NCBI GenBank assembly: GCA_977020255.1
Contig: CDROCS010002100.1
Location: forward strand, 434,001 to 498,000
Length of the DNA: 64,000 nt
Reading direction: 5' to 3'
Source: Obrimoposthia wandeli
Lineage: Eukaryota
Both the position numbers and the translations under genes were made by a program. Below are positions 54,434 through 64,000 of the stretch, one piece after another. The notes under the pieces were generated by a model that did not search any database, had not been told where the DNA came from, and worked only from the letters and a program-made list of their open reading frames with translations. Positions within the stretch are counted from its first letter, which is position 1. Each line of letters begins with the position of its first letter.

Positions 54434-54669
54434 AGTAAGTGTGTCAGGAGGTAGATGTGGCACTTCTGGAACAAAACCCCCCCCCTAAGGACAAAATTTT
54501 TTAAGGTCAAGTTGAGGACAAAAAATCTAGGTCAAGTTAAGGTCACGGTGAGGTCAAGATGTAGGTCATGACCTCATGAGGTCATGGGAAAAATCTAGGT
54601 CATGACCTCATGAGGTCATGACCCCCACTATGCTCAGGAAAAAATTCTTTGTCCTGAAAGACACACATC
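54434..54669. mobile_element. Mini-Maverick-like terminal derivative (~240 bp)
   Basis: The left end is a diverged direct copy of the terminus (AGTA..GTGTGTC..AGGA..GAACA..polyC) and contains an AGGTCA array. The right end is an inverted copy of the terminus. Confidence 0.55.
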
Positions 54670-54670
54670 A

Positions 54671-54910
54671 AGTAGGGGGATGTGTGTCTTTCAGGACAAA
54701 GACATTTTGAACATACCCCCCCCCCCTTGAGCACAGTTTAAGGTCACGATGAGGACATGACCTCATGAGGTCAACTTAAGGTCACGGTGAGGACAAGGTG
54801 TAGGTCATGACCTCATGAGGTCAAGTTAAGGTCAAGTTAAGGTCAATGTACTTTATGGTCAACATAAGGTCATGACGTCATGAGGACAACTTAAGGTCAC
54901 AGTGAGGTCA
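54671..54910 (+). repeat. Maverick terminal repeat region with AGGTCA array and palindromes
   Basis: More than 10 AGG(T/A)CA hexamers, mostly at 11-bp spacing, and recurrent TGACCTCATGAGGTCA palindromes. TIR status is inferred because the other end is not visible. Confidence 0.75.
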
Positions 54911-56725
54911 AAAAGATTATATTTTTAGTAACATACTTTAAATCTATATATCTTTTTATCTAAAGACTGTATTAACACCAATTCACCAAAATACATCTCG
55001 TGTGTGTGTTTTATAATTTAAATTAAATTATCTACTTATAAAATAAAGTATTATATAATTTGATAAATTTATTTAAACTAAATTAAATTAAACTATCTAG
55101 TTATAAAATAAAGTATTATATAATTTGATAATCATGTTTAAACGTTCCTATATCTATCTAACAAAGACAGTCACGTACTGCATCTATATTGCAAAAACCT
55201 GCAAATTTATGTAAATAATTTTAAAATAAAGACAAGTATTTCAAACACATATATTCCTTAAAATCACAAAGGAGAATAAAAATATGTACAACACATATAA
55301 AAAGTTTATACAACCTCGTCTGGGTATAAAAAGTGACCATAGGCGACTGAACGGTTTTTCTCCACCCACTTGCTCTTATCATCACTACTACTTAAGACAA
55401 TTTTACTTAACCTTACAGTAAAAAGTTGATGATTTAGCGAGCGTGTTGTTGTACACGCTCGCTAACGCCACTCTCATATACGGCTAAGTAATTAGAGTGC
55501 CTAATACTCGTCTGTCGGAGACTAATACCTTTCGCTCTCATCTGAGATTCACCTTCTGTAGTCTCTAGGCTATATGATTTTGGTCGTAGAAAAATCCCTT
55601 GGCTATAACTAAATAATCCCTTACTCTCATCTTTAAATTTTCCTATCGCTGTATTAAGCGTCGTATAAAGCGGATGGGTTTTTGGAAATTTCGAGGTATC
55701 CAACAGTCCATCAGCAATCATAGCAGGTAACAGTGATTCTTGAACATTGACATTATTACACTTCAAGAAAAAGCTATCAGTGTCACCCGCTATAATTCTA
55801 ATGTCGCAGTTAAATTGAACTCGATATTTCTCCAACTGCTCATATTGTAGCTCATACATACGAAGTTTGCTTAAATCTAATACTGCCTGACCCATGTAAC
55901 TAGGACGATCCAAAACAATATTTTCCTTATCCAGTAAAACTGCAATAAGGTCCGTATCGATTTCGATTGTCCTACGAAAGTGGGCTTTACTGCAATAGAT
56001 AACCAGCTTCTGTGGAGTATTACAAATCCGGAGGTTAATTCTTTTCATCAGATTCTCAATGAGTTTTCCAAATAAAGAATTCACCTTCAGTTTATAATAA
56101 TCCCGCTCGAAATCTGTTGTAGCCGCAGCTCTTTTGAGAGAATTATCCTCAATATATTTTGAAAAAACATTAGTTTGTTCAAACTGTATTGCTCTGTATA
56201 CAAAATCTACCTTAGCACCAAGTCTAACGTACATTTGTAGCAATCTAGAATGCACAACATAATGTTTCTTAGGGTAATGCGTTAATAACAATTTTTCAGT
56301 CTTACACGCTGTTGGACGCTGTTTAATGGGAGCAAGGGGAAGATCGTCGAATTTATTATGAAGCTCGTTGGGAATGGATAAATCTATTTCCAATAAATGA
56401 GCGAAGCGACTACAGGATAAATCTGCTGATTTTAAGCTGGAGATAATATTCCCCAACTCTAACCTATCAGTCACCCAGGAAAAGTTACCACAAGGTAAAA
56501 ACTGGGACATAGCCCACCCGTACAAATTGTTTACATCAATGTACAAAAGTTCTGTACCATTGATGGCGTCCACGCGGTGTTCATTAACAAATGTCATACC
56601 CCCGCGAATCCCAGACCGGAAGAGTCGGTACATTTCTGGATCCTGTATTAGCTCGACTCGCACAACGGGAGCAGAAGAAGAAGCCGGACGAAGCAGGGAT
56701 TTGAAAGCACTCGCGAAAGTCAGTC

Positions 56726-56858
56726 CTGGAAATAAAAACATTTATTAAAATCATTGTGAAAATCATTACTTTGAAAATCATCTATCTAACAAAGACGGTC
56801 ACGCATCTATATTGCAAATACTTGCATCTTTATGTAATCAATAGTAACATTTATTCTT

Positions 56859-56899
<41 letters not shown>

Positions 56900-57041
56900 A
56901 GTATCTAACAAAGACAGTCACGTACTGCATCTATATTGCAAATACTTGCATCTTTATGTAATCAATAGTAACATTTATTTTTATACATGTATATATATAT
57001 GTGTTAGTGTCTAAAATTAGAAAAATTAGAAAAATACAAAA
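56726..57041 (-). other. pPolB intron 2 (316 nt, phase 1; donor reads TT instead of GT)
   Basis: Removal restores FFSIP-G-LTFASAF. Polypyrimidine acceptor TTTTTATTTCCAG. AT-rich, with an internal ~120-bp tandem duplication and a (TA)n tract. Confidence 0.75.
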
Positions 57042-59516
57042 CAGGGATGGAGAAGAAATTGAGTGGCTCCAATCCATCGTCAGCAATGGCCTTGGTCCGG
57101 AATGCTGTAAACACGTCTGCTAGAAGGTAGACGTCCATCTTCATATAGACCAGCATATAGTCCCAGAGCGATGAGCAGCCGCTCTGAGTCCAGACCATCT
57201 TCGCCATTTCATATTGTGCTGGCTTGATCTTCTCATCCCACTTTGGCGGTAAGCTGGTGATTGCGCGAAGAGCAGTCTCTGATACTGCCATATCGTATGG
57301 GAAGATTCCCTTGGCGCTCACCAGATGTTGCGGGAAGACCGAATGTGTAAGAGGAGTCACACCCAGGTTTTCCACAAGTTTTTCTAAGCTGCTGTTCAAA
57401 AATTGAAGGGAATCGATGAAACGTATACAGACTCCTCCAATATACACCATCATAGCCTGGAATTTCTTTGTTGATTGAGGTATAACAGATACATTCAAGT
57501 CGGAAAACTTGCATAGTGCGTGCTTCAATATGTGGTGCATGTCATAACCCATAAGATTATAAAAAATGACTGGAAAAGATCGATTAATTCTCCTTGATAA
57601 GTTGCATTTTGCATGTGCAGCTCCCAGGTATTCGCCAGTCATGTGATTGTGATCTCGAACTTTGTTTGTGAGTTTCTTCTTACACAGGTAACAGATTCTT
57701 GCTGCATTGAAACTCGATACCTGTTCCTGTGTGAGTTGTCGCATCACCTCGATCGCAGGCTTCTTGTACCATGGGAGTACAACCTCTTTCGCCAAGTCCT
57801 CTAATTTCTGCAAAAAGGATACCACACAAGATTCTCCGGTAAAGACCGAGTAATCATGTGTGTACCCTCTCGTGGCTGCAACGGGAGACATGAGCATACC
57901 GGCCGAGATTGGAAGCTGAATCTGATGGTGGATCCCATGTGGCGGTAGCACAGCCTCAAAGTCCGCGTAAACAGCAAAAGGCGGAGAAATCGTTTTTGAA
58001 AAGACCTTAAACTCAATATGCTTCTCTGTAGGTATTGAATAAAGTGTTGTATGATCTAAATTCATCCTACAGAGCGGAACGTGTTTGGCGTAACTTATCG
58101 GACTACGGAATCCATGAAGACATTTATGGCACCAAGTACACCGAATGCAATTAGATACACCTTTGTTCCTATAATTAAGCAGCCTATTGAGTTTAGGAAT
58201 ACCGACATAATGAAAATTATCATTATTTTCTAAAAGGATAAGATTGATTGGCTTAGCGTCCTGTTAAACTGTAGGTTTGTGGTTCTGTAAATGACATCCA
58301 CATAGGGATTTTTGAAGATATCCCCATCTGTTTGTACATTAGAGAACCTATTGAATGTAAATACGTTGGTTGATAGAGATGGATTCTTTCTCTCAAATCG
58401 CGGTATATTACATAGACGCATCGGCATATCATTCTCATCAAAAACTAATTGACTCAAAAAGGCATCATATTGATTAACCCGATGAGGATTAGAGCGAAAT
58501 ATTTCGCGGAAAAGTACAGATAAGATACTGTAAAGGAAGCAAAACGCGTTAGAGTTCTGCACATTGATAACGCAATGTGAGAGTGCTAACTCAGATGGAG
58601 TAGGTATATAACTACTCCCCTGGAGATAGTTCATTGTTGTTGTTTTAGTCACAACAAACGAAATCTCCAGGAAGCTGTTCACTACCCAATTACTGCTACT
58701 TTGAGAATAATTCTCAATCTTCTTGTTGATCCCATCTACTCCCGCATCTATAAACCCCTCATCTATGGGGAGCCCTCTATTGGAAAAATTCCAAGCGCGT
58801 GTTTCTCCAATATTGGAAAATTCAACACGCACCCCGAATTGAACCTCGCAAGTCGCAAACTTGCTGACTGTGTCCCTTAAGCTAGTCAAACGTGATACAG
58901 GAACTTGTAAATCGATGAGATTGTCATTAGAAACATCTAATGACAATGTCTCAATCGTGCCCCGAAGACTAGTCTTACGCTTAACATCATCAACCCTGGA
59001 AAACTTCGCAACAGAGCTACCTGAAGTGGGCATAACACTTCTCTTGCGGGTAGATGCTGGTAACGGCGCGGGGATCATACCAACTGGAGGAGGCATAACT
59101 GGAACCATTGGTGCAGCAGATGATGGTGAAGCAACTGGGGCAGCAACTGGAACCATTGGTGCAGCAAATGATGGTGAAGCAACTGGACTAGTAACAGCAG
59201 CAGCAATTGGGGCAGATAGTGGAACAGCAGAAATTGGGGCAGCAATTGGCGAAGCAGCAACAACTGGACCAGCAACCCGAGAAATAGTAGCAGATCTATT
59301 CTGAAAGATGGCCTTCTTGCCACGTTGCTGGAAATGGCGAAGATGGACACGATGACGCGCCACAAACTCCAGCCAATCAATCTCCTCCGTAGAGAGACAT
59401 ACTGGACATACGTAGAATTGTTGTCCGTTGAACTTCTGTCCAAAGTAGCTCTTCATTTTTCCATCTCATTCCTTGTGACTCTCCTCGAAGCATAATTCTT
59501 TGTTCATATTGCAATT

Positions 59517-59692: not shown

Positions 59693-60202
59693 TTACTGAC
59701 AGATGTGAGTAGTTGAATTTTCATTAATATTTAAATAATCCAAACTAGCTGCAAAGCATTTCTTGTATGCACAATGCTCGCCATGTTTAATATATGGACA
59801 ATTGATATTTGATGGATTTAATTGTTTTAATGTTTTCGAGTAATTTATCACTCTAAATGCAGGAAAATATTTATTGATTGTCTTTATTTTAGCTCCATTA
59901 TTTTCATCCAAAACATAGAAAATTGATTTGGATACATCACAACAACGTTTTATTTCCTCAGTTATTTCTTGTATCTTGAAATTACTATTACCATCAACTA
60001 GTTTTAGTCGATGGTAATGCTTAATGAGATATCTATTTATTTTTCTTGATTTTCTATTCATCATGTCCCATATGGGTTGCATTTTAAAAACATAATGTTT
60101 AGGATAGAAGATTGCATCCACATCCATTATACATAGTTCTTTTATTACAAATTCAGTATTATTATCAATAAAAGCTTCAAAATCAATAAAATAAACAGAC
60201 AT
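59693..60202 (-). CDS. DEDD/DnaQ-fold nuclease-like protein with putative E-C-H-C zinc site
   Basis: Intact 169-aa ORF with N-terminal YFIDFEAF...IKEL and C-terminal CPYIKHGEHCAYKKC. Confidence 0.65.
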   Translation of the reverse strand: MSVYFIDFEAFIDNNTEFVIKELCIMDVDAIFYPKHYVFKMQPIWDMMNRKSRKINRYLIKHYHRLKLVDGNSNFKIQEITEEIKRCCDVSKSIFYVLDENNGAKIKTINKYFPAFRVINYSKTLKQLNPSNINCPYIKHGEHCAYKKCFAASLDYLNINENSTTHICQ

Positions 60203-60239: not shown

Positions 60240-60617
60240 CTATTGTTTATGCTTTAACCAAAGCAGACAGAGTTGTCCACATGACTGTGTTAAAACATTT
60301 TGATAATGTTTCTTACTAAAATGTACTTTCTTTCCAGAGTCAAGTACTGTAGATACTAATTTAGAAGGGTAATATATCCTAAAGGGGTCAAAAACAAAGA
60401 TTTCATTTTCATTAACATGTATTGCAATCCAATGTTCACCACGCAAATTACATGAATGTGTATTGATTACATATCCACCTAGTCGAGTCAAAGAGGGTAT
60501 GTGATCAAGACTGTAGACTCCATTGAAACGCGAACCGAGTAGTTTTCTTCCGCTTTTTGTTATCTCGTCCGAACTAGAATATATATTAATTAATAAATTC
60601 AAACTGACTTACTTCAT
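60240..60617 (-). CDS. Adenain-like cysteine protease, spliced
   Basis: GEHW, FDPF and QNVLTQSCGQLC catalytic motifs. Exon 1 ATGAA (60617-60613) plus exon 2 (60573-60240) gives MNSDEITKSGRK. Confidence 0.9.
60574..60612 (-). other. Protease intron (39 nt, phase 2)
   Basis: Canonical GTAAGT...TTCTAG; without it the ORF has no in-frame ATG. Confidence 0.8.
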
Positions 60618-60648
60618 TTATATATCTTCTTTATTGTTTTCATTCTGT

Positions 60649-61867
60649 TTATACTAGTACTGTTCCTCCTTTGGTAATTTGCATCTCAGAATCGAATACT
60701 CCATAGATTATAATATTAGTAGGATGTTCAAGTGCTTTTGAAAACTTGATTTATACTTTCAAATTTCCCTGTTTAGGGATTTGAGCTTGATTAATATCGA
60801 AATCAGGAGAGAGAACAAATGTGAACAGTGTATACTTGTCCTTGAAATCAGTCATTGAAATTCCAATATTAGCATCCTTATCCAAATGACCAAGATTTCT
60901 AATTAAAGATTGCACATAAGAAAACACATAATCATCGTTTTCAAAGTCATTCGTATAAGATTCTTGATAATCAATATTTCGTGCAAGTTTAATTGAACTC
61001 ACATTCATGTGTCCAAATTGAGAAACCTCATTTTTAGACTCACCTCCATAGGTAGAAGTGTTTTGGAAAGCAATTAAAACAAAGTTTGGAAGTTGCATAT
61101 CACCAAAAATCTGATCCTTGTAATAAGATAGTGCCCCAGTAGGGATAGCGTGAGAAACAAGATTAGTTTTTCTAATAGGATAACATGCATTTTGCTTCTC
61201 CAACCCTATTCGATGTGCAACGAGTACAGATGGTTCCACCTTTACTCGTCGAACCAGCAGTTTTGCTTCCGTAATCTCAATGCGGTTTTAATAGTATCGT
61301 CGCAAACAACACTAAAACCTACTGGATTTCTCTTCATTCGAGTATGTGCACTTACACCGGGTAAAAGATACTTTGGTTGCTTAAAGAAATCCAAATGGAG
61401 ACTCCCACAAAGTGACAATACTTTAGACTTTGCAATCGAGGCAATTCTTCTTTTTTCATCATTGTCAAACCCAATTGCATCAAGATTAATCAAATTCGTA
61501 TCATTACCGTAATTCAACAATGTTTCAATCATTGCTTTATGGGTGTAACTAGTATTATTTCCCTCAACTTGAGACTGAGAATCACATCCTTGAAAAGAGT
61601 ATGCAACATGTAATTAGCTGATTTGATATCCATACCATCATCCAAATCACCTCCACCTTCCTTTGTAACTTTCAATTTAACGAGAAATAAACTATCATTC
61701 AAATCAAGATATTGAGTATTGGATCCATTAATATTGAATTCTAAATCCGGAGAAGATGTCCCGTTAACCGTATTTGTAGGAAATATTTCTTCAAAACTAG
61801 CACTATCAACCACAACCTGAGATATAGGTTTATCGAATATACACAATTCAGTTTTAGCACAACTCAT
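60649..61867 (-). pseudogene. Double jelly-roll major capsid protein (Polinton PY), disrupted
   Basis: KTELCIFDKP, LEFNING..YLDLNDS, LHTLF, LHLDFFKQPKYLLPGV, YTLFTFVLSPD and IYGVFD motifs. Two -1 frameshifts (~61570, ~61275) and an in-frame TAA at 60751-60753. Confidence 0.9.
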
Positions 61868-62210
61868 TACTTAAAAATTGTTCCACCTAGTTTCAAACGT
61901 TTGTTTATACCCGATGCTTTAGATGTTTTCTTACGTTTATAACCACTTCCCTTTTGAGTTTTCCTTTTCGAAAATTCAGCTAGACTTGGTGAAATTTCAT
62001 TCACCTGATCCAAGGCAGAAATTTCCCATCACCAGACAAGTATTTTGATCCAACATTAGCAATAAATTTCCCGAGTCGCTTGAGTAGTGGGAAAGCAAAG
62101 CGACCAAAAACCTTCATCCATCCTGATCCATACTGTTTTCCGGCAAAATAAGGCAAATCACCTCCTTGCATCGGTTTACTATACGCCTCGATTATACTTG
62201 AATCAATCAT
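61867..62210 (-). CDS. Small Polinton virion protein with adenain-type sites and basic tail, one frameshift
   Basis: MQGG|D and QYGSG|W sites, amphipathic WMKVFGRFAFPLLKRLGKF. After a frameshift at ~62025 it continues ...QKGSGYKRKK...LGGTIFK*. Confidence 0.7.
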
Positions 62211-63228
62211 AATTTACGAAAATGAACCGTTAAACTTGTTTTAGCTCCGTAAGCAAATGTAATTAATCTTCCAGAATCATTACGTATATTAACTTCAATA
62301 TTGTTTATAGAAGAAGAACTCACGGGAATATACATTGGATTTTCAATTGGAATATGTATAACATCACCATACTTGTGCTTTTTCTGTTGAACCCAAATTG
62401 CTTTAATTAAGGGAAGTTTCCTTCCTCCTACGAATATTGGTTCGGTAATACTCGTGTAGATATAAATCTGATTATATGCATTAGTCATTTTAGGAATAAT
62501 CTTTGCTTTGAAAACCTCATTTTTATTTTCAAATTCATTTTCATCAAAACCGATAATTGAGGCTAATGATTTATCCATGATGATTTTATCAATATTGGAT
62601 TTCAATTTGAAATGAATAAATTTATTAACTAGTTTAAAGTTTTCAAATACATTTGGTAACACTGTTTTAAAATGTTTACACATACTTTTGCTATCGGCAA
62701 AAAGAAAATCATTGGGAACTGAATATATTTTTCTCTCGCGTTTAACGAATCTGTTTTTTATCTTGAATGTAATTATCGGATATTTGACATGATTATCCAT
62801 AATTTGTGAAACTGCATGCTTACCTTTTTCAACGTTAGGCGGAAATCCATATTGTTCTGCAACAATTTCATCATTAAAAACTATTTCAAAATTATCCCCT
62901 TTTCCCATAATTTGAATTCGATTCTCTTTATTTAAATAGACTGTGAAATCATCACCTGACTTAATACGAGCCAAATCCATTTGACCCTTATCAAATAGTA
63001 AAGTCACATCAGTTACTTTATCAGCTTCACGTTGGGTAATATATTCAATCTCAGTTTCACTTTGAATAGATAGAAGAGAGTATTGAAAGAAAATTCCATA
63101 AGAGCAGCTTCCCAACAACCTGGTAAATTGATTGAGCTTTGATAATCAATACTAAAACTATTAGCAGTATTATTCGGCTGTGTTAATTGGGAACCATTAC
63201 TTGGTAATACAACATACATTGAGTTCAT
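62207..63228 (-). pseudogene. Minor capsid (penton-like, Polinton PX) protein, one frameshift
   Basis: N-terminal MYVVLPSNGS...NNTANSF...WEAALMEFS; C-terminal IYIYTSI..VGG..NPMYIPV..IEVNIRNDSG..HFRK. Frameshift at ~63090. Confidence 0.88.
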
Positions 63229-64000
63229 TCTATTTGAGAAGCTAATATCCAACTAGGTTCAGTATATCCATGCCACTTAACTTGATATTGTTTATGCTTT
63301 CCTCTACCTTTTGTCTCTAAAATTTCTTGGATTCTATATACATTTGATTTCTCAGGCAAGACTTGTAATTCCTCATGATAAAATTTACCCGTGATTACAT
63401 TATTGGTTTCATCCTCAATGAAATACATTACCGGCCCACGTTTATTATCAATTTTAGTTATACGAAATACTTCATCGCTCCAATTCTCTTTGAAATTCTT
63501 TATAAAAGGAGTAGTACTAATTTGAGAAATACGTACATAATCACCAACTTTATACTTGGGTTTCCGAGCAAATTGACTTTGGTTACGGCGTTGCCAAATT
63601 TCCATAGCATTCTCATCTGTAACATCAACGGGTCTCTTCCAGTCTAATGATGAGTGTTCACTATGATTGTATGCATGTATTATTTGAGGTAAAACAGTAA
63701 CCCAGGACTTATTTCCCTGCTTTGTGAAATACTTTTTTAAACGATCTCTCAATGTTCGATTAAAACGTTCAACTAAAGCGGCTTTATATTGGGAAAATAC
63801 TGAGTAATGATTAATATTATGTTTTTCAATGGTGTTTCAACATGTTTATTATAAAATTCCTTTCCACTATCGGTTTGGAAATTTCTTGGTTTTATTTCTT
63901 TAATCAAAAGCTTCATTGCGGCTAAAACATCGGTACCAGACTTAGACTTTAATGGAATAGCTCGCGCGAATCTGCTAATGACATCAACACAAGTTAAAAT
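63225..64000 (-). pseudogene. Retroviral-like integrase with C-terminal chromodomain-like region, 5' partial, one frameshift
   Basis: ILTCVDVISRF, QTDSGKEF, VERFNRTL and VKWHGY..SWI motifs. Frameshift at ~63822. Confidence 0.93.

What the first reader, a model, noticed from the sequence alone, without database searches (positions are those of the whole stretch)
59693..60202. Cargo gene resembling the Maelstrom / arenavirus-NP exonuclease fold
Seen: an intact 169-aa ORF, one of only two undisrupted genes in the element, between the protease and pPolB. It has D7-x-E9, E22, C135, H140 and H143-C144 (HCAYKKC). Known: the arenavirus NP C-terminal DEDDh domain uses D-x-E, a Zn site of E/C/H/C and an H-C-A-x-x-D-C motif to degrade dsRNA and evade innate immunity. 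The piRNA factor MAEL shares the fold and ECHC site but lost acidic catalytic residues in animals. Inference: here the last acidic position is K148, MAEL-like. This could be a virus-borne RNase or decoy that interferes with piRNA/RNAi defence.
Basis: partly seen in the sequence, partly recalled or inferred. Interest (0 to 1): 0.75.

Follow-up and report, generated by a model that had tools for sequence, protein, structure and literature searches.

The report
Polinton Maelstrom-like zinc pseudonuclease gene
A virus-like giant transposon (Polinton) carries a small conserved gene whose protein is predicted to fold like the piRNA factor Maelstrom but likely lacks a working nuclease site, so it likely binds RNA and would dampen host silencing; published Polinton maps already use the label 'MAEL' for what is likely this gene.

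Summary
The 169-aa ORF (59693-60202, minus strand) and every residue named are real. A confident model (pLDDT 94, pTM 0.88) has the DnaQ/DEDDh fold. Maelstrom is the top hit among 48,161 PDB chains (Z 13.0), tied with one DinG domain; Lassa NP scores Z 10.8-11.9. The E/C/H/C zinc residues are conserved, and K148 matches Bombyx Maelstrom R306. Neither position 148 nor 105 (the inferred third acid) is acidic in any of 264 relatives, and position 9 is Gln in 105, so a canonical exonuclease is unlikely.

It is not stray cargo. It follows the protease in 15 of 18 metagenomic loci and in three Polinton families of this genome, and is under purifying selection (dN/dS about 0.18). Its intactness here is unremarkable: 12 of 29 copies picked independently of it are open.

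The resemblance is already in print as a label ('MAEL', Starrett 2021; 'mael-associated polintons', a 2026 preprint). I did not find in print the active-site analysis, the structural relatives in ichnoviruses, or an eight-domain wasp protein. Best reading: an RNA-binding pseudonuclease acting against host RNA silencing (0.45; function untested). New member of a known kind; interest 0.42.

The parts
59693..60202 (-). MAEL-like gene, 169 aa: minimal DnaQ/DEDDh-fold domain with E22/C135/H140/C144 predicted zinc site; D7, E9 and H143 kept; K105 and K148 at (inferred) acidic positions
60240..60608 (-). Adenain-type cysteine protease frame (122 aa stop to stop, no in-frame ATG at its start), ending 37 nt upstream of the MAEL-like ATG
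   Evidence: Pfam Peptidase_C5 E 0.0034, below the cut-off; the protease part of the fused homolog P0173 passes it, E 9e-7
60640..61867 (-). Major capsid gene, in pieces in this copy (frame breaks near 61280 and 61570). The name is inferred from gene order and recall; Pfam gave no match
61870..62213 (-). Small conserved Polinton gene (about 120 aa in other copies), broken near 62020; unnamed here
62207..63252 (-). Minor capsid-type gene, broken near 63080. The name is inferred from gene order and recall
63225..64000 (-). Integrase with C-terminal chromodomain-like part, broken near 63820, continuing beyond the window. The integrase name is recalled; Chromo E 0.006 is below the cut-off
57004..59515 (-). 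Protein-primed PolB, N-terminal and exonuclease part, in pieces (breaks near 58260 and 59140-59150)
   Evidence: Pfam DNA_pol_B_2 E 2.6e-9
55300..56741 (-). Protein-primed PolB polymerase part (break near 55440); left boundary approximate
   Evidence: Pfam DNA_pol_B_2 E 9e-16
54443..55150 (.). Repeat-rich terminal region of the element; similarity to other copies stops at 54443-55148

Best explanation
This is a conserved Polinton gene, placed directly after the protease, whose 169-aa product is predicted to be a minimal Maelstrom/arenavirus-NP-type DnaQ domain with a likely structural zinc site, and which likely works as a catalytically disabled RNA-binding protein that would blunt host RNA silencing. 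Shown: the ORF, its residue conservation, its gene position and purifying selection between families. Predicted: the fold, and that E22/C135/H140/C144 bind zinc. Inferred: K105 and K148 fill the two positions where DEDDh enzymes have metal-binding aspartates, and K148 pairs with D7/E9 as R306 pairs with D122 in Bombyx MAEL, so two-metal hydrolysis is lost and the basic pocket (pI 8.9) binds RNA backbone. Most weakly inferred: the bound RNA is viral transcript or guide-target duplex, and binding shields the element from piRNA/siRNA or dsRNA sensing during its replicative phase.
For: Model pLDDT 94.2, pTM 0.88. Foldseek PDB rank 1 and 3 are Maelstrom chains (9nhs_F, 9nhc_F; TM 0.63). VIA-align against 48,161 chains: 9nhc_F Z 13.0 (rmsd 3.1, 154 aligned), Drosophila MAEL 11.5, Bombyx MAEL 11.1, Lassa NP 10.8 (rmsd 3.0, 139 aligned), LCMV NP 10.3. 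In the second look the four best rows are all Maelstrom, Z 12.5-13.0, and Lassa NP scores 11.9. The Atlas's own model of homolog P0002 also matches DEDD nucleases, TM 0.63-0.67. In A2 (103 proteins): E22 103, C135 100, H140 99, C144 99, K105 101, K148 91. In the diverse set A3, E22, C135 and C144 are invariant in 72 of 72. Of 264 members filtered for E22 and C144, out of 309 aligned, 0 are acidic at 105, 0 at 148, and position 9 is Glu in 147 and Gln in 105. Bombyx MAEL has D122, N124, R306 and binds ssRNA without cutting it (PMC4408791). The eight-domain wasp protein P0172 has Asn or Ser at position 9 in all eight full repeats, which fits avidity binding rather than catalysis. Structural relatives occur in ichnoviruses, whose packaged genomes lack replication genes and serve against host immunity (PMC4553618). 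dN/dS against a sister family is 0.17-0.18.
Against: No direct evidence on substrate, expression or phenotype. The lead of Maelstrom over other DEDD folds is small: DinG's exonuclease domain (Z 12.2) is tied with it, and 3'hExo and epsilon score 11.2-11.5; identity is 10-15%. No Pfam or PDB sequence or profile search links the family to MAEL or NP. This copy and its clade keep D7, E9 and H143, so residual catalysis is possible, and one paper states that metazoan MAEL domains have endonuclease activity in vitro (PMC8881725). The protein lacks the HMG box that mediates Mael-Siwi binding in Bombyx, and its 167 residues span 210 residues of MAEL, so much of the partner surface may be missing. The fixed position in the capsid-protease block fits a virion or late role equally well. 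The register that puts K105 at the third acid is inferred from secondary structure and spacing, not from a residue-level superposition; D99/E100 in a nearby loop could supply an acid.
Confidence: 0.45

Rival explanations
1. Housekeeping role in the virus-like cycle: a nucleic-acid-binding (DNA end or core) protein of the late capsid-protease block, unrelated to silencing.
For: Directly downstream of and co-oriented with the protease in 15 of 18 metagenomic loci (the other 3 lack enough upstream DNA) and in 6 of 6 loci from two other families in this genome. One homolog record, P0173, is a protease-MAEL fusion. Basic protein. The DinG exonuclease domain is tied for best fold match.
Against: Absent from that slot in one other Polinton type in this genome (one locus, L022) and from the cupiennin/gasderminX polinton group, so it is not universal. 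Structural relatives in ichnoviruses and tandem wasp proteins suggest use outside virion assembly.
Confidence: 0.25
2. Active RNase with a remodelled site (one metal plus lysines, or an endonuclease as reported for some MAEL domains) that destroys dsRNA or small-RNA intermediates, as the arenavirus NP domain does.
For: D7, E9 and H143 are kept in the query clade (98, 95 and 91 of 103). K21, K105 and K148 are strongly conserved. The NP fold match is Z 10.8-11.9. MAEL endonuclease activity is cited in PMC8881725.
Against: DEDDh enzymes need all five residues (PMC3429428); two positions are never acidic in 264 members, position 9 is Gln in 105, and H143 is kept in only 150. Bombyx MAEL, with a similar pocket, was inactive.
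Confidence: 0.22
3. Protein-interaction module or relic: the fold is kept only as a scaffold for binding a viral or host protein, with no nucleic-acid role.
For: The wider family keeps zinc ligands and core aromatics but varies at the pocket. MAEL itself supports protein contacts.
Against: Pocket residues D/E7, E/Q9, K105 and K/N148 remain constrained. dN/dS below 1 excludes a pure relic at lineage level.
Confidence: 0.08

Closest known systems
Polinton/adintovirus 'MAEL' gene (Starrett et al. 2021, PMC8502044, Suppl. Fig. S2; 'mael-associated' polintons, bioRxiv 10.1101/2025.02.07.637071)
   Same: Same element type. In the first map the label MAEL stands among Hexon, Adenain and Oncoid (text of the figure). 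An uncharacterized protein of Drosophila-associated adintovirus 2 is a near-top viral fold match (TM 0.75, 166 aa).
   Different: There it is only a map label or cluster marker: 'MAEL' occurs 0 times in Starrett's main text, and no residue or function analysis appears in the passages seen. I could not compare sequences with the labelled proteins, so identity of the families is inferred from position and fold.
Metazoan Maelstrom MAEL domain (PDB 5AF0, 4YBG, 9NHC; Pfam PF13017)
   Same: DnaQ fold (best structural match), E/C/H/C residues, 15-residue D-to-E spacing, basic residue at Cys+4 (K148 against R306), lost DEDD set.
   Different: Stand-alone 169 aa with no HMG box or disordered tail; about 40 residues shorter over the aligned span; 10-15% identity; no PF13017 match; C-x4-H-x3-C against C-x2-H-x8-C; keeps E9 where Bombyx has N124.
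Arenavirus NP C-terminal exoribonuclease (Lassa 3R3L/4G9Z, LCMV 4O6H)
   Same: Fold (Z 10.3-11.9), ECHC zinc finger shared with MAEL (PMC7968707), D-x-E, and His five residues before the last catalytic position.
   Different: NP has D389, E391, D466, D533 and H528 and digests dsRNA; here the D533 position is K148 and the D466 position is inferred to be K105. There is no N-terminal nucleocapsid domain, and the host element is a DNA virus-like transposon.
Protist MAEL (Entamoeba EHI_192630)
   Same: ECHC plus DnaQ fold.
   Different: Keeps the full DEDD set and is an active ribonuclease; this protein does not keep the set.
Ichnovirus ORFs GfV-D6-ORF1, GfV-B38-ORF1, AsIV-cont00151-ORF1, AsIV-cont00163-ORF1; Microplitis mediator LOC130677000
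   Same: Foldseek E 2e-7 to 9e-6, above all generic DEDD nucleases. The wasp protein is a sequence homolog with eight full domains.
   Different: Uncharacterised. The ichnovirus link rests on predicted structures only, three of the four being shorter (106-131 aa), and they may be Polinton remnants rather than recruited genes.

Membership tests
MAEL domain (Maelstrom) | DnaQ/RNase H-like fold, closest to MAEL structures | tested here: met
   top Z 13.0, but tied within 1 unit with the DinG domain
MAEL domain (Maelstrom) | Conserved E-C-H-C residues in sequence (E on strand 2, C/H/C near the last helix) | tested here: met
   spacing compared with PMC4408791. The His column is variable in distant members: 150 of 264 in register, 236 of 264 with a His between the two Cys by a loose pattern
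MAEL domain (Maelstrom) | The four residues form a tetrahedral zinc site in 3D | not testable with these tools
   model coordinates are not delivered; needs inspection of a model or a metal assay
MAEL domain (Maelstrom) | Full EHHCHC signature (PMC2628886) | tested here: inconclusive
   E22, H64 (102 of 103), C135, H140 and C144 are present; a second early His was not identified
MAEL domain (Maelstrom) | Match to Pfam PF13017 | tested here: not met
   0 of 12 and 0 of 101 proteins; Atlas feature score 0.86-0.87 is a lead only
Maelstrom protein (metazoan) | N-terminal HMG box | tested here: not met
   the domain fills residues 1-167 of 169
Maelstrom protein (metazoan) | Acts in the PIWI complex with GTSF1 | not testable with these tools
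   no host PIWI or MAEL sequence obtained; the primary structure papers were not held
Arenavirus NP-type / active DEDDh exonuclease | First D-x-E pair and general-base His | tested here: met
   D7, E9, H143; Gln at 9 in 105 of 264 relatives
Arenavirus NP-type / active DEDDh exonuclease | Fourth acid, five residues after the His (D533) | tested here: not met
   K148; acidic in 0 of 264
Arenavirus NP-type / active DEDDh exonuclease | Third acid at the start of the helix after strand 4 (D466) | tested here: inconclusive
   K105 occupies the inferred position and is acidic in 0 of 264; the neighbouring position 104 is Glu in 102 of 264 but Ala here; the register was not confirmed by residue-level superposition
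Arenavirus NP-type / active DEDDh exonuclease | dsRNA-specific 3'-5' exonuclease activity | not testable with these tools
   needs an assay
Polinton 'MAEL' gene | Lies in a Polinton beside the Adenain and major capsid genes | tested here: met
   published map labels
Polinton 'MAEL' gene | Sequence homology to the proteins labelled MAEL in the published maps | not testable with these tools
   the labelled sequences were not in the readable part of the supplement (file cut, slide files unreadable); no fetched homolog carried the name

The most novel reading that the evidence does not exclude
Polintons carry a stripped-down Maelstrom mimic that competes with host Maelstrom for the PIWI-guide-target duplex, making it a mobile-element-encoded decoy against the piRNA pathway. 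It forms a third ECHC branch beside Maelstrom and arenavirus NP, and parasitoid wasps and their polydnaviruses have recruited it (single copies in ichnoviruses, an eight-domain array in Microplitis).
Probability: 0.15. Interest if true: 0.85.

Novelty: new member of a known kind. Interest (0 to 1): 0.42.

Why it matters
How Polintons reach high copy number in animal genomes despite piRNA surveillance is open; here there are at least 150 near-identical copies of this gene. A small, single-domain, well-modelled Maelstrom look-alike present in a large polinton group makes a counter-defence hypothesis directly testable. It also adds a DNA-virus branch to the ECHC nuclease lineage, which the paper I read describes only from Maelstrom and arenaviruses (PMC7968707). 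The value lies in the family-level question; this particular copy is ordinary.

Tried and rejected
Sequence-level naming failed. Pfam gave no relevant family for the query, 12 close members or 101 further members; PHROGs gave none for 72; PDB sequence and profile searches gave nothing under E 0.2.

Host Maelstrom search in the own genome: no match, and no control rang, so it is uninformative. Viral contigs: 1 weak 30-residue match of 59 candidates (L040, a phage-like contig), rejected because the family profile does not hit it.

E9-K148 / Q9-N148 co-variation (141 and 85 of 264) is mostly one deep split. On a 261-row tree there are 8 and 10 single changes and 14 joint changes, so about 4 coupled events: weak support for contact only. 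Within-family polymorphism (19 gap-free copies; singletons 16 synonymous, 34 non-synonymous, 6 stops; pN/pS 0.48) does not separate selection from mutation bias. The comparison with the more distant family gave dN/dS 0.42, with synonymous sites saturated in the control genes. TATAAA upstream of the gene was present in 8 of 16 testable loci, not a consistent motif, and one spacing value (L042) was a script mis-pick. The C+4 column was off by one and is not used.

Literature: searches polinton+Maelstrom (4 papers, listing only), Maverick+Polinton+DEDD (2, listing only), adintovirus+Maelstrom (0) and MAEL+polinton (2) showed no functional study. Passages of PMC8097293, PMC11161782 and 10.1101/2023.08.22.554363 do not discuss the gene. 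The two primary PIWI-GTSF1-Maelstrom structure papers were not held. Earlier scan findings: none. No complex prediction was run, as no host PIWI sequence was available.

Full report
OBSERVATION. The frame is on the minus strand at 59693-60202 and encodes 169 aa. It sits 37 nt downstream of an adenain-type protease frame and upstream of a protein-primed PolB, with capsid-type and integrase-type genes further upstream, all on one strand (the capsid and integrase names rest on gene order and recall). The element runs from about 54.4-55.1 kb to beyond the window end. The genome holds at least 150 copies of the gene at 98-100% amino-acid identity (only the best 150 were scored, so this set is biased toward open frames).

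INTACTNESS IS NOT A SIGNAL. Of 8 gene regions in the window copy, the protease and this gene have no private frame-changing indel, and the other six hold 9 such sites. A 510-nt gene would escape that load with probability 0.57. Among 29 other copies picked by protease DNA, 12 are open, 7 have a stop or lost start, 6 an indel, and 4 aligned only partly. Function at lineage level is shown better by divergence between families: dN/dS is 0.17-0.18 against two loci of a sister family (protease 0.21, capsid 0.06-0.07) and 0.42 against a more distant family.

A WIDESPREAD FAMILY WITH A FIXED SLOT. A single-sequence search gave 11 homologs among 23 candidates, a profile gave 109 among 573, and a full HMMER scan gave 1,335 representatives at E <= 0.001, 222 at 1e-10. 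Atlas look-alike clusters are unnamed, mostly eukaryotic, commonest Arthropoda. In 15 of 18 metagenomic loci the protease lies directly upstream in the same orientation; the other three begin under 130 nt before the gene. The same holds for 6 of 6 loci from two further families in this genome. One other Polinton type here lacks the gene in that slot (one locus). It is therefore a lineage-conserved accessory gene, not stray cargo.

FOLD. No sequence or profile search named the family. AlphaFold2 with 103 sequences gave pLDDT 94.2 and pTM 0.88, with strands at 2-12, 18-27, 30-40, 93-97 and 118-120 and a long last helix at 145-165. Foldseek against PDB ranks Maelstrom chains 1 and 3 (TM 0.63), followed by DEDD nucleases. 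VIA-align against 48,161 representatives gives Maelstrom 9nhc_F Z 13.0 (rmsd 3.1, 154 aligned), DinG 12.2 (tied), Drosophila MAEL 11.5, 3'hExo 11.5, epsilon 11.2, Bombyx MAEL 11.1, Lassa NP 10.8 and LCMV NP 10.3. In the second look the four best rows are Maelstrom and Lassa NP reaches 11.9. The Atlas's separate model of the 44%-identical homolog P0002 matches DEDD nucleases at TM 0.63-0.67. The DnaQ fold is thus secure as a prediction. Placement nearest MAEL rests on a modest Z lead plus the zinc residues.

RESIDUES. Bombyx MAEL binds zinc through E137, C290, H293 and C302, and has D122, N124 and R306 in the dead pocket, with R306 bonded to D122; it bound ssRNA and did not cut it (PMC4408791). 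The query has the same D-to-E spacing (15) and the same Cys+4 basic residue. Lassa NP uses D389, E391, D466, D533 and H528 (PMC3429428); H143 to K148 matches the H528 to D533 spacing. In 103 close homologs: D7 98, E9 95, E22 103, H64 102, K105 101, C135 100, H140 99, H143 91, C144 99, K148 91. In 72 diverse ones E22, C135 and C144 are invariant. I aligned 309 of the 311 proteins then fetched (the two long tandem proteins were left out) and kept 264 with E22 and C144 in register; the set includes close relatives. Position 148 is Lys in 151, Asn in 86 and never acidic; position 105 is Lys in 243 and never acidic; position 9 is Glu in 147 and Gln in 105; H143 is kept in 150. K105 opens the helix after strand 4, where DEDDh enzymes carry their third acid; this register is my inference, not a superposition. 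E9/K148 and Q9/N148 go together (141 and 85), but mostly as two clades, with about 4 coupled changes. Whether the four zinc residues cluster in space could not be measured.

MECHANISM. Shown: ORF, conservation, position, selection. Predicted: fold and zinc site. Inferred: loss of two-metal catalysis and RNA binding in a basic pocket. Weakly inferred: counter-silencing. In favour of a host-directed role, Foldseek against viral models places four ichnovirus ORFs (E 2e-7 to 9e-6) just behind an unnamed protein (Q4FEW2) and an adintovirus protein, and above all generic nucleases. Packaged polydnavirus genomes lack replication genes and serve against host immunity (PMC4553618). A braconid wasp protein has eight full tandem copies, all lacking the second acid. 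Reviews state that Maelstrom joins PIWI and GTSF1 on target engagement and contacts target positions 23-25 (PMC13269885; PMC13618286), which offers a decoy route. Against it, the HMG box that mediates Mael-Siwi binding in Bombyx is absent (PMC8881725), the domain is about 40 residues shorter over the aligned span, identity is 10-15%, and the position in the capsid-protease block suits a virion role. I put RNA-binding pseudonuclease acting against silencing at 0.45, a housekeeping nucleic-acid binder at 0.25, a remodelled RNase at 0.22 and a scaffold at 0.08.

PRIOR KNOWLEDGE. Starrett et al. 2021 (PMC8502044) label a gene 'MAEL' four times in Supplementary Fig. S2, in the first map among Hexon, Adenain and Oncoid; the word does not occur in their main text or preprint text. 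[quoted passage not shown] That these labels denote this family is inferred from position and from the adintovirus fold match; the labelled sequences and Fig. S1 (slides) could not be read and may already hold an HHpred argument. My searches showed no functional or active-site study of the Polinton gene and no link to ichnoviruses, within an open-access library only.

WHAT I SAW OF EACH PAPER. PMC8502044: passages, section 3.2 and the text of Fig. S2. PMC4408791: parts 1-2 of 4. Passages only: PMC7968707, PMC3429428, PMC2628886, PMC8881725, PMC13269885, PMC13618286, PMC4553618, PMC8097293, PMC11161782, 10.1101/2023.08.22.554363, 10.1101/697771 and 10.1101/2025.02.07.637071. De 2025, Portell-Montserrat 2025 and Matsumoto 2015: nothing beyond citations in those passages and PDB titles.

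VERDICT. The RNase option is the less likely one, the intactness argument is empty, and the gene type is already labelled. New member of a known kind; interest 0.42. The anti-piRNA decoy reading has probability about 0.15 and would deserve 0.85.

Noticed in passing
L029:7358-7705(-); L043:6502-6966(+); L046:804-1274(+): These Polintons carry a TBP-like gene (Pfam PF00352, E 3e-13 to 1e-17). In metagenomic loci L043 and L046 it lies directly downstream of the MAEL-like gene (similar ORFs in L041, L042 and L047 were not scanned); in this genome's family it lies beyond the ATPase.
   Followed up: partly
L029:7969-8967(-) and L029:6161-6949(-), same family, outside the window: Further accessory genes: an IAP-type protein (BIR E 2e-13 plus RING E 1e-11) and a dual-specificity phosphatase (E 6e-13), so the family has other host-directed genes.
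   Followed up: partly
window 60243-60608(-); L059-L071; L022:5382-5726(-): The protease frame has no ATG at its start in the window, in 12 other copies looked at, or in a second Polinton type. A short intron or a non-AUG start is possible.
   Followed up: no
window about 56740-57000: PolB is interrupted by an AT-rich stretch at a similar place in the other copies listed, which suggests an intron or an old insertion rather than decay of this copy.
   Followed up: no
L061, L064, L071, L080: 4 of 29 protease-picked copies share a stop at codon 22 of the MAEL-like gene: either copies lacking the gene still spread, or the site mutates recurrently.
   Followed up: no
L089, L090, L093, L094 and L091, L092: At least two more MAEL-bearing Polinton families occur in this genome (about 62% and 43-45% identical in this protein). 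The first is about 92% identical in the capsid C-terminal part but under 60% in most PolB N-terminal matches.
   Followed up: partly
L022:4300-6400: A Polinton type in the same genome has the protease followed by a convergent PolB and no MAEL-like gene (one locus).
   Followed up: partly
proteins P0172, P0177, P0237: Tandem arrays of the domain: 8 full repeats in Microplitis mediator LOC130677000 (1521 aa), 4 in P0177 and 2 in P0237; a 1022-aa unnamed viral protein (A0A0K1Y8R3) also matches by fold.
   Followed up: partly
window 54500-54915: Short direct and inverted repeats rich in AGGTCA/TGACCT words lie at the element's end; the likeness to nuclear-receptor half-sites is recalled and untested.
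   Followed up: no
L022, L026, L030, L031, L039: Nested insertions are seen among copies: Polinton pieces beside or inside other Polintons, and retroelement-like ORFs within or next to them (retroelement names recalled).
   Followed up: no
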